DNA from: Escherichia coli
GTDB taxonomy: Bacteria; Pseudomonadota; Gammaproteobacteria; Enterobacterales; Enterobacteriaceae
DNA length: 64,000 bases
Strand: one strand, 5' to 3'
Assembly (NCBI RefSeq): GCF_002854065.1
Contig: NZ_CP024147.1
The notes beneath the pieces were generated by a model. It saw only the letters and a program-made list of their open reading frames with translations. It ran no database searches and was not told the origin of the DNA. Shown here piece by piece: positions 36,115 to 36,243 of the stretch (its first letter is position 1; each line of letters starts with the position of its first letter). Made by a program: the position numbers and the translations under genes.

Positions 36115-36243
36115 TCGCAAAATAGTCGATTTAAACAGAGACAGCTGACAACGGTAGAATTGCCTGATGCACTGGGTTTATCAGGCATGAAAACCAACAC
36201 TTTGTTAGTCATCTGTAAAATAGCGCATCATTAAGGAGTACCA

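What the first reader, a model, noticed from the sequence alone, without database searches (positions are those of the whole stretch)
36161..36187. Inverted repeat in the uup-pqiA intergenic region
TGCCTGAT-(11 nt)-ATCAGGCA forms an 8-bp stem between the uup stop and the pqiA start. It has no following T-run on either strand, so it is not a typical intrinsic terminator. It could be a regulator site or an RNA-processing structure for the stress-induced pqi operon.
Basis: inference. Interest (0 to 1): 0.2.

Follow-up and report, generated by a model that had tools for sequence, protein, structure and literature searches.

The report
Worn-down REP repeat before pqiA
The small hairpin between uup and pqiA is the decayed remnant of a common E. 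coli repetitive element (a REP from a BIME-1) that was inserted only in the Escherichia lineage, so it is ordinary genomic debris and not a dedicated switch for the pqi stress operon.

Summary
The inverted repeat is real: TGCCTGAT (36161-36168), 11 nt, ATCAGGCA (36180-36187), with no T-run on either strand. An 8-bp repeat alone is not statistically special, since about 18-22 are expected per 64 kb. Its origin is clear, though. In more than 70 other Enterobacteriaceae species the uup-pqiA spacer is only 12-18 nt. Only Escherichia has 128-205 nt. Deep Escherichia lineages (E. albertii, E. whittamii and others) carry a BIME-1-like element there: a canonical REP (TGCCTGATGCGCTACGCTTATCAGGC), an IHF-type linker and an inverted second REP. 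That REP occurs at least 28 times per E. coli genome (median at least 40, capped). In E. coli a 59-76-nt deletion between ATC(A/C)GGCATGA direct repeats removed the linker and second REP, leaving this hairpin. It lacks the GTAG/CTAC foot that defines active REPs. It lies in the uup 3' UTR and in the 340-nt pqiA 5' UTR, which starts at a conserved promoter inside uup. No Term-seq 3' end, Rho region or marbox maps to it. A weak TSS starts inside its 5' arm. It folds at -12.7 kcal/mol (-16.8 in K-12), with a few compensatory changes. The likeliest role is none, or a generic exonuclease barrier. Interest is low.

The parts
36161..36187 (+). The hairpin: a degenerate solo REP. It is in the iREP orientation and z-type, because it carries the TGCC|TGAT motif. 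Lower stem 36161-36168 / 36180-36187 (8 bp). Upper stem 36169-36172 / 36176-36179 (G.U, C x U mismatch, A-U, C-G). Loop 36173-36175.
   Evidence: RNA fold -12.7 kcal/mol, z -2.6; MG1655 allele -16.8, z -5.6. Orthologous to the canonical REP TGCCTGATGCGCTACGCTTATCAGGC in the long-form Escherichia alleles. That REP matches at least 28 and a median of at least 40 places per E. coli genome. The TGCC|TGAT motif is the TnpA_REP type I iREP site in PMC3333891.
36145..36160 (+). Left flank, CTGACAACGGTAGAAT, shared with the BIME-1 family unit. Its last six bases form a -10-like hexamer: TAGAAT here, TAAAAT in most E. coli.
   Evidence: It aligns with the left flank of the K-12 narP-ccmH BIME-1 (ATGACAAACGCAAAACTGCC). 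The promoter scan found TAAACA-17-TAGAAT.
36132..36137 (+). -35-like hexamer TAAACA of the weak spacer promoter.
   Evidence: 9 of 12 matches, 17-nt spacing.
36167..36167 (+). Weak transcription start (A) inside the 5' arm, 7 nt after the -10-like hexamer. Transcripts from here lack the full hairpin.
   Evidence: Cappable-seq TSS at U00096.2 1011147, RRS 1.63 against a threshold of 1.5, enrichment 4.7 (PMC4782308 supplement). The coordinate shift of +777 was verified. Folding of the resulting 5' end gives z = +0.3 to +0.7.
36180..36190 (+). ATCAGGCATGA, the junction of the deletion that collapsed the BIME. In long forms this motif occurs twice as a direct repeat, once after each REP.
   Evidence: Alignments. 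Long forms read ...TTATCAGGCATGAGGG...(linker, right REP)...GCATCCGGCATGAAAA. Short forms read ...TTATCAGGCATGAAAA.
36221..36230 (+). TAGCGCATCA, probably a further REP-derived fragment in the opposite orientation. It is complementary to the ancestral REP's TGATGCGCTA and invariant in all Escherichia alleles.
   Evidence: pair I5; one occurrence in 64 kb against 0.13 expected. It is an exact substring of the REP GTAGGCCTGATAAGCGTAGCGCATCAGGCA shown. Invariance is shown.
36115..36243 (+). The whole 129-nt uup-pqiA spacer. All of it except the last ~15 nt (the SD region) is an Escherichia-specific insertion.
   Evidence: the spacer is 12-18 nt in Citrobacter, Salmonella, Klebsiella, Enterobacter, Kluyvera, Leclercia, Cedecea and others, and 128-205 nt only in Escherichia.
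35885..35904 (+). Conserved promoter inside uup (-10 candidate TAAGCT at 35891-35896) with its strong TSS at G35904. This is the main pqiA transcript start under the tested condition. It places the hairpin at about +258 to +284 of a 340-nt 5' UTR.
   Evidence: Cappable-seq TSS at U00096.2 1010884, RRS 73. AAACTAAGCTATAA is invariant at synonymous sites in at least 12 genera.

Best explanation
The inverted repeat is the surviving left-hand REP (repetitive extragenic palindrome) of a BIME-1-type mosaic element. That element was inserted between the uup stop codon and the pqiA ribosome-binding site in an ancestor of the genus Escherichia. The ancestral element had three parts: a z-type REP, a linker with an IHF-type site, and an inverted y-type REP. 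In the E. coli lineage a 59-76-nt deletion between two ATC(A/C)GGCATGA direct repeats, one after each REP, removed the linker and the second REP and left one hairpin. All copies at this locus have lost the GTAG/CTAC foot that the REP transposase needs, so it is an immobile fossil. Its palindromic shape is inherited from the repeat family and was not built for pqi regulation. The hairpin is transcribed within the uup 3' UTR and within the long pqiA 5' UTR that starts at a conserved promoter inside uup. There it folds into a 9-12-bp stem-loop. The most likely effect is either none, or the generic REP effect of passively blocking 3'-to-5' exonucleases (PNPase, RNase II) and so protecting upstream uup RNA. 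It is not a terminator and not a pqi-specific operator. Shown here: the origin, homology, deletion junction, transcription context and folding. Inferred: any RNA-stabilising effect. My estimates are about 0.9 that it is a REP remnant, about 0.5 that it is functionally neutral, and about 0.35 that it measurably stabilises upstream RNA.
For: (1) Taxonomic distribution: the spacer is 12-18 nt in over 70 non-Escherichia species and 128-205 nt only in Escherichia. (2) Long-form alleles in five lineages carry TGCCTGATGCGCTACGCTTATCAGGC at the orthologous place, followed by a linker with TCAATTTATTG and an inverted REP. They align along their whole length with a canonical K-12 BIME-1 between narP and ccmH, including about 15 nt of flank on each side. 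(3) Repetitiveness: the 100-nt long-form core matches a median of 5 and up to 13 places per E. coli genome. (4) The deletion junction is flanked by direct repeats. On a pqiA tree the long forms occupy all the deep branches. (5) The definitions of REP, BIME-1 and the TGCC|TGAT iREP site come from PMC3333891. (6) RNA folding gives -12.7 kcal/mol in the window (z -2.6) and -16.8 in MG1655 (z -5.6). (7) Transcription across the hairpin: a strong TSS at 35904 inside uup sits on a promoter conserved across genera. (8) The general mechanism, in which U-less stem-loops and REPs protect 3' ends from PNPase and RNase II, is described in PMC6061677. (9) The helix is partly maintained: 90% of cells are paired against 24-44% for slid controls, three pairs change on both sides, and one follows the path G-C to G.U to A-U.
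Against: The GTAG/CTAC foot is absent here (ATGA) and in every allele at this locus, so it is not a canonical REP. The window's own inner 11 nt differ at 4 positions from the REP consensus. No Term-seq 3' end maps at the hairpin in LB at OD 0.4, LB at OD 2.0 or M63. This argues against a prominent exonuclease-barrier role, although uup is weakly expressed and the lists are thresholded. The 8-nt arms are not significantly more conserved than the flanks (2/16 vs 22/102 variable sites, p = 0.52). Position 36170 in the upper stem has three alleles, A/C/T. Apparent compensatory changes can arise without selection, through template switching in quasi-palindromes (established knowledge, not tested here). 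L006 carries a short form on a long-form-like pqiA background, so the history is not a single clean deletion.
Confidence: 0.85

Rival explanations
1. An exapted REP. After the BIME collapsed, the remaining hairpin was kept by selection as an RNA structure in the pqiA 5' UTR and uup 3' UTR. It might set the relative stability of the uup and pqiA RNA segments or act as a processing landmark.
For: The lower stem is kept in all ten distinct alleles. N96 has a double change (TGCCAGAT/ATCTGGCA) that preserves pairing. Pair 19-25 moved from G-C through G.U to A-U. The ancestral C x U mismatch was repaired in two different ways, A-U in MG1655 and C-G in L006. The covariation score was reached by only 6 of 500 shuffles. 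The majority E. coli allele is a perfect 12-bp stem. The inner segment changes faster than the flanks (7/11 vs 22/102, p = 0.006) while the arms stay intact. The hairpin lies in the 5' UTR of the main pqiA transcript.
Against: There are only three or four events, and the tool itself warns that related sequences can beat the shuffles without any structure. The arms are not significantly more conserved than the flanks. The upper-stem position 36170 segregates A/C/T in E. coli, so perfect pairing is not required. No 3' end is detected there. Every other genus runs pqiABC without it. Template-switch mutation in quasi-palindromes mimics compensation.
Confidence: 0.1
2. One reading: a palindromic operator bound by a regulator (for example of the SoxS/MarA/Rob or RpoS circuits) that controls the stress-induced pqi operon.
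For: It is a perfect 8-bp palindrome lying next to a -10-like hexamer and overlapping a weak TSS at 36167. That is a typical position for a repressor site.
Against: The palindrome is that of a genome-wide repeat present at least 28 times per genome. It is absent from all non-Escherichia pqiA loci. No marbox/soxbox lies within it or anywhere in 35700-36244 at up to 2 mismatches, and window-wide matches (12) are below the chance level of 16.4. The promoter it overlaps is barely above the detection threshold (RRS 1.63 vs 1.5), while the main TSS (RRS 73) is 263 nt upstream. SoxS-family sites are asymmetric 20-mers and not palindromes (established knowledge).
Confidence: 0.04
3. A transcription attenuator or terminator separating uup from pqiA, either Rho-dependent as reported for some BIMEs or a weak intrinsic one.
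For: BIMEs can cause Rho-dependent attenuation (Espeli et al. 2001, cited in PMC6061677). The insertion broke an otherwise tight 12-18-nt uup-pqiA junction.
Against: There is no U-run on either strand. No Term-seq 3' end and no Rho-termination region lie between 993275 and 1012729 on the + strand. The main pqiA transcript has to read through the hairpin from TSS 35904.
Confidence: 0.04
4. A chance inverted repeat with no history or function.
For: About 18-22 perfect 8-bp inverted repeats with loops of 3-20 nt are expected per 64 kb of this composition.
Against: It is positionally orthologous to a canonical REP in sister species. The REP-specific pattern GCCTGATG...ATCAGGC is never seen in shuffles. 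MG1655 folding gives z = -5.6.
Confidence: 0.01

Closest known systems
REP (repetitive extragenic palindromic) sequences of E. coli, z-type, in iREP orientation
   Same: Extragenic position. An imperfect palindrome with the arms TGCCTGAT/ATCAGGCA. It contains the TGCC|TGAT motif described for z1/z2 iREPs. It is positionally orthologous to a copy 26/26 identical to canonical REPs. It forms a stable RNA or DNA hairpin without a U-tract.
   Different: It lacks the conserved CTAC/GTAG foot (ATGA instead). Four of the inner 11 nt have diverged from the consensus. In K-12 the internal mismatch required for TnpA_REP binding has been repaired. It is a single copy, and I found no annotation for it, though the annotation copy available here lists no REPs at all.
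BIME-1 (z1 REP, L linker with IHF site, y REP), for example the K-12 narP-ccmH copy
   Same: The long-form alleles at this locus in E. albertii, E. whittamii, Escherichia sp. E1V33 and two metagenomic lineages align along their whole length with a canonical BIME-1, including both flanks. The window keeps the left flank and the left REP.
   Different: The window has lost the linker and the second REP by deletion, so it can no longer offer the IHF site or the two-REP architecture. Even the long forms here have degenerate GTAG/CTAC feet.
U-less protective 3' stem-loops of Rho-terminated mRNAs (Dar & Sorek 2018) and REP mRNA stabilisers (Newbury et al. 1987)
   Same: A stable hairpin with no U-run, 47 nt downstream of a stop codon. 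This is the expected geometry for a barrier against PNPase and RNase II.
   Different: No steady-state 3' end was detected here in the Term-seq tables I could read. The hairpin is also internal to the downstream gene's 5' UTR.
naRNA4 / CssrE (Rfam RF02564), a REP-derived nucleoid-associated RNA
   Same: It is the best-placed Rfam match, spanning 36124-36187 and ending at the last base of the hairpin. The family consensus is a y-type REP hairpin.
   Different: It scores 18.5 bits against a gathering score of 59.5 (E = 1), so it is not a member. The MG1655 and long-form alleles give no hit at all in a larger search.

Membership tests
REP (repetitive extragenic palindrome) | Extragenic imperfect palindrome able to form a stem-loop (30-40 nt including the foot, per PMC3333891) | tested here: met
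   A 27-nt palindrome in the uup-pqiA spacer. It forms a 12-pair helix with one C x U mismatch, at -12.7 kcal/mol. It is shorter than 30-40 nt only because the foot is missing.
REP (repetitive extragenic palindrome) | Highly conserved GTAG tetranucleotide at the foot of the palindrome (CTAC in iREP orientation) | tested here: not met
   The window has ...ATCAGGC-ATGA where canonical copies have ...ATCAGGC-CTAC. Every allele at this locus is degenerate: CTGG, ATGG or ATGA. I therefore file it as REP-derived by descent and not as a canonical, transposase-competent REP.
REP (repetitive extragenic palindrome) | Member of a high-copy dispersed sequence family (y, z1, z2 types) | tested here: met
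   The orthologous ancestral sequence matches at least 28 and a median of at least 40 (capped) places per E. coli genome, with best identities up to 97%. The window's copy is 23/27 identical to it. The diverged window sequence itself was not searched separately.
REP (repetitive extragenic palindrome) | Recognition and cleavage by TnpA_REP (RAYT) | not testable with these tools
   The TGCC|TGAT type I motif is present, but the GTAG required for binding is absent (one search gives the requirement). I predict it is inactive.
BIME-1 | Two REPs (z1 and y) in inverse orientation | tested here: not met
   Only one REP remains in the window. The long-form orthologues do have two.
BIME-1 | Conserved long L linker, frequently with an IHF site | tested here: not met
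   The linker is deleted in the window and in all short forms. It is present in long forms as TCAATTTATTG, compared with ATCAATTTATTG in the K-12 narP-ccmH copy.
Intrinsic (Rho-independent) terminator | G+C-rich stem-loop followed by a U-run | tested here: not met
   The terminator scan finds nothing here. The downstream sequence is TGAAAACC on the + strand and ATTCTACC on the - strand. No Term-seq 3' end maps here.
SoxS/MarA/Rob binding site (marbox/soxbox) | Match to the asymmetric consensus AYNGCACNNWNNRYYAAAY (consensus recalled from memory) | tested here: not met
   There is no match at up to 2 mismatches anywhere in 35700-36244. The 12 matches window-wide are below the chance expectation of 16.4.
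Rfam families (naRNA4 RF02564 and all others) | Covariance-model score at or above the gathering threshold | tested here: not met
   naRNA4 scores 18.5 bits against a gathering score of 59.5 (E = 1), and nothing else is relevant.

The most novel reading that the evidence does not exclude
A domesticated repeat. Insertion of a BIME-1 into the otherwise fixed 12-18-nt uup-pqiA junction rewired the locus in Escherichia. It uncoupled pqiA from uup, donated a -10 element from the BIME flank that now fires a weak promoter starting inside the hairpin, and left a REP hairpin. E. coli has since tightened that hairpin into a perfect 12-bp stem through compensatory changes, because it tunes uup or pqiA mRNA stability or translation.
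Probability: 0.1. Interest if true: 0.35.

Novelty: new member of a known kind. Interest (0 to 1): 0.13.

Why it matters
It matters little for pqi biology. The hairpin should not be read as a stress-regulatory site, and analyses of the pqiA promoter should look to the conserved promoter inside uup (TSS at window 35904). It is a tidy example of how REP/BIME elements invade tight gene junctions, decay, collapse by deletion between their own repeated arms, and leave hairpins that look like regulatory sites. It also shows that a BIME flank can supply a weak promoter. For annotation, it suggests that degenerate solo REPs lacking the GTAG foot may be missed by REP catalogues.

Tried and rejected
(1) MG1655 annotation. 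No feature is listed in the spacer. However, this copy of the annotation lists no REPs at all: REP1, which from memory lies near 5565-5669, is absent. The absence is therefore uninformative.

(2) Original pqi-5 promoter papers (Koh & Roe 1995 and 1996). Neither could be read: my recalled PubMed and PMC ids for the 1995 paper matched nothing held, and I did not try to fetch the 1996 paper. Searches for pqiA with uup, SoxS or promoter gave nothing relevant.

(3) Supplements. The RepRanger files do not list this site. The Dar & Sorek, 3'-UTR valve and Nanopore papers have no supplements held as text. The SMRT-Cappable-seq tables do not mention uup or pqiA.

(4) Marbox scan: negative.

(5) Rfam: only sub-threshold noise.

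(6) Upstream ORF. A 15-codon uORF (ATG 36187 to TAA 36234) starts at the last stem base and stops in the pqiA SD. I rejected it because the start is ACG in N96, the frame shifts in L003, and long forms stop early at TAG.

(7) A 5' stabilising hairpin on the transcript from the weak TSS. Rejected because that RNA lacks the 5' arm and shows no significant structure.

(8) The 70-aa minus-strand ORF at 36000-36212 that overlaps the hairpin. I treated it as spurious because it overlaps the uup 3' end and the insertion, and did not pursue it.

(9) A single clean deletion event. This is not fully supported, because L006 carries a short form on a long-form-like pqiA background with mosaic uup.

Full report
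**Observation.** The window is E. coli and is exactly colinear with K-12 MG1655 (window position = NC_000913.3 position - 975757). The uup gene ends at 36114 and pqiA starts at 36244. No T-run follows on either strand, and the terminator scan finds nothing there. As a bare 8-bp repeat it is not statistically special. About 22 +/- 7 such repeats with loops of 3-20 nt occur in simulated sequence of the window's composition, and the window has about 24 distinct ones. Folding shows that the '11-nt loop' is partly helix. The window allele forms 9 pairs, a C x U mismatch and 2 more pairs around a 3-nt loop (-12.7 kcal/mol, z -2.6). The majority E. coli allele, as in MG1655 (GAUGAAC), is a perfect 12-bp stem (-16.8 kcal/mol, z -5.6).

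I fetched 80 pqiA loci, one per species, and extracted each spacer.
- In Citrobacter, Salmonella, Klebsiella, Enterobacter, Kluyvera, Leclercia, Cedecea, Buttiauxella, Atlantibacter and other genera, the uup stop and the pqiA start are separated by only 12-18 nt, essentially just a Shine-Dalgarno sequence.
- Only Escherichia has a long spacer, of 128-205 nt.

So the hairpin is not a conserved enterobacterial feature. It lies inside an Escherichia-specific insertion.

**What the insertion is.** Long-form alleles of 188-205 nt occur in five lineages: E. albertii, E. whittamii, Escherichia sp. E1V33, an 'E69-type' lineage and a further metagenomic lineage. At the hairpin's position they all carry TGCCTGAT-GCGCTACGCTT-ATCAGGC. 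This is followed by a linker (TCAATTTATTG in three lineages) and a second palindrome in inverse orientation ending ...GCATCCGGCATGAAAA. Three results identify this as a known repeat family:
- The 100-nt core matches a median of 5 and up to 13 intergenic places per E. coli genome.
- One such place, between narP and ccmH in K-12, is a textbook BIME-1: iREP with CTAC, a linker with ATCAATTTATTGA, then GTAG with a y-type REP. The uup-pqiA long forms align with it along their whole length, including about 15 nt of flank on each side.
It is identical, apart from the foot, to a REP visible in a Term-seq table row.

The definitions used come from Ton-Hoang et al. 2012 (PMC3333891). These cover REPs as imperfect palindromes with a GTAG foot, BIME-1 as z1 and y REPs with a long IHF-binding linker, and the TGCC|TGAT iREP cleavage motif.

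**How the E. coli form arose.** In the long forms both REPs are followed by the direct repeat ATC(A/C)GGCATGA. The short forms of 128-129 nt (E. coli, L003, L006, N96/WL297) are exactly the long form minus everything between those repeats, which is 59-76 nt. The window's hairpin is therefore the complete left REP, with the junction at 36180-36190. On a pqiA tree the long forms occupy all the deep branches, and the short form characterises the E. coli clade. One exception is L006, which has a short form while its pqiA groups with long-form lineages and its uup is mosaic. That points to either recombination at the spacer or a second deletion. A further 10-nt REP substring in the opposite orientation, TAGCGCATCA at 36221-36230, sits just before the SD and is invariant in Escherichia.

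**Degeneracy.** Every allele at this locus has lost the CTAC/GTAG feet (CTGG, ATGG or ATGA on the left; CTGT, CTGA, CAGG, CAGA or CATG on the right). According to PMC3333891 these are required for TnpA_REP binding. The window contains no canonical REP anywhere in its 64 kb. Rfam gives only an 18.5-bit hit to the REP-derived naRNA4 family, far below the 59.5 gathering score.

**Variation.** Among nine short-form alleles the variable sites are distributed as follows.

| Region | Variable sites | Comparison with flanks |
|---|---|---|
| Inner 11 nt | 7 of 11 | Fisher p = 0.006 |
| Flanks | 22 of 102 | reference |
| Two 8-nt arms | 2 of 16 | p = 0.52 |

The only two arm changes are the compensating pair in N96 (TGCCAGAT/ATCTGGCA). 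On ten distinct alleles the 12-pair model is paired in 90% of cells, against 24-44% for slid controls. Three pairs change on both sides, one of them along the path G-C to G.U to A-U, and the covariation score was reached by only 6 of 500 shuffles. This is suggestive but rests on few events. Position 36170 in the upper stem carries A, C or T within E. coli. Template-switch mutation in quasi-palindromes can also mimic compensation (established knowledge, not tested here).

**Transcription context.** Cappable-seq data (PMC4782308 supplement) use U00096.2 coordinates. I verified the +777 shift to U00096.3 statistically: with that shift 46 of 48 local TSSs fall on purines and the -10 motif count peaks.
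- A strong TSS (RRS 73) lies at window G35904 inside uup, 340 nt upstream of the pqiA ATG. The surrounding DNA, AAACTAAGCTATAA, is invariant even at synonymous sites in at least 12 genera. This promoter therefore predates the insertion, and the BIME landed in an existing pqiA 5' UTR, which is also the uup 3' UTR.
- A weak TSS (RRS 1.63, threshold 1.5) lies at A36167 inside the 5' arm, exactly 7 nt after the -10-like hexamer at 36155-36160 (TAGAAT here, TAAAAT in most strains). That hexamer pairs with TAAACA 17 nt upstream and derives from the BIME flank. RNA from this start lacks the hairpin and has no significant structure.

**Transcript ends and binding sites.** The complete supplementary tables of Adams et al. 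2021 cover LB at OD 0.4, LB at OD 2.0 and M63. They list no 3' end and no Rho-termination region between 993275 and 1012729 on the + strand, and uup never appears. No marbox-like site lies in 35700-36244. I could not read the original pqi-5 promoter papers.

**Conclusion.** The hairpin is a worn solo REP left by the collapse of a BIME-1 that invaded the uup-pqiA junction in Escherichia. It is transcribed and folds. The best-supported role is either none or the generic REP role as a passive 3'-to-5' exonuclease barrier (mechanism reviewed in PMC6061677). For that role there is no positive evidence at this site. The regulator-site, processing-site and terminator readings are not supported. The finding is ordinary, with a modestly instructive evolutionary history.

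Noticed in passing
window 35885-35904 (inside uup): A strong capped 5' end at G35904 (Cappable-seq RRS 73) lies 340 nt upstream of the pqiA ATG. The DNA AAACTAAGCTATAA is invariant at synonymous sites, including a rare CTA Leu codon, in at least 12 enterobacterial genera. This suggests a conserved intragenic pqiA promoter embedded in uup codons.
   Followed up: partly
window 36972 (MG1655 1012729): Adams et al. 2021 list a Term-seq 3' end internal to pqiA, 728 nt into the ORF, in one of their condition lists.
   Followed up: no
window 36221-36230: TAGCGCATCA, just upstream of the pqiA SD, is an exact REP substring in the opposite orientation. It is invariant in all Escherichia alleles and complementary to the ancestral REP's 5' arm and loop (pair I5). 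It may be a third REP fragment and could form an alternative pairing.
   Followed up: partly
window 36187-36234: A 15-codon upstream ORF (MKTNTLLVICKIAHH) starts at the last stem base and stops inside the pqiA SD. It is not conserved among Escherichia alleles, so it is probably meaningless.
   Followed up: yes
window 36158 and 36170: The window strain differs from the majority E. coli allele at two spacer positions. The -10-like hexamer is TAGAAT instead of TAAAAT. The upper-stem base is C (mismatch) instead of A (paired). Position 36170 carries A, C or T across E. coli.
   Followed up: yes
L006 (E. coli strain SCPM-O-B-8794), uup-pqiA region: The spacer is the short form, yet pqiA groups with long-form lineages (L005, L007) and the uup tail is mosaic. 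This suggests recombination with a breakpoint at or near the REP, or an independent deletion.
   Followed up: partly
E. coli genome search with window 35900-36500: The locus is present in 5425 of 5426 complete E. coli genomes. Four matches are on records labelled as plasmids, and one genome lacks the locus.
   Followed up: no
whole window 1-64000: Apart from this remnant, I found no REP with canonical arms or a canonical CTAC foot in the 64-kb window. From memory, REPs average roughly one per 8 kb genome-wide. The closest foot-like match, TTATCCGGCATAC at 17240-17252 on the - strand, is inside pepN and at chance level.
   Followed up: partly
window 39917 (U00096.2 1014897): A very strong capped 5' end (RRS 516) lies 41 nt upstream of rmf. 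Several further + strand starts lie within and just after rmf, antisense to fabA.
   Followed up: no
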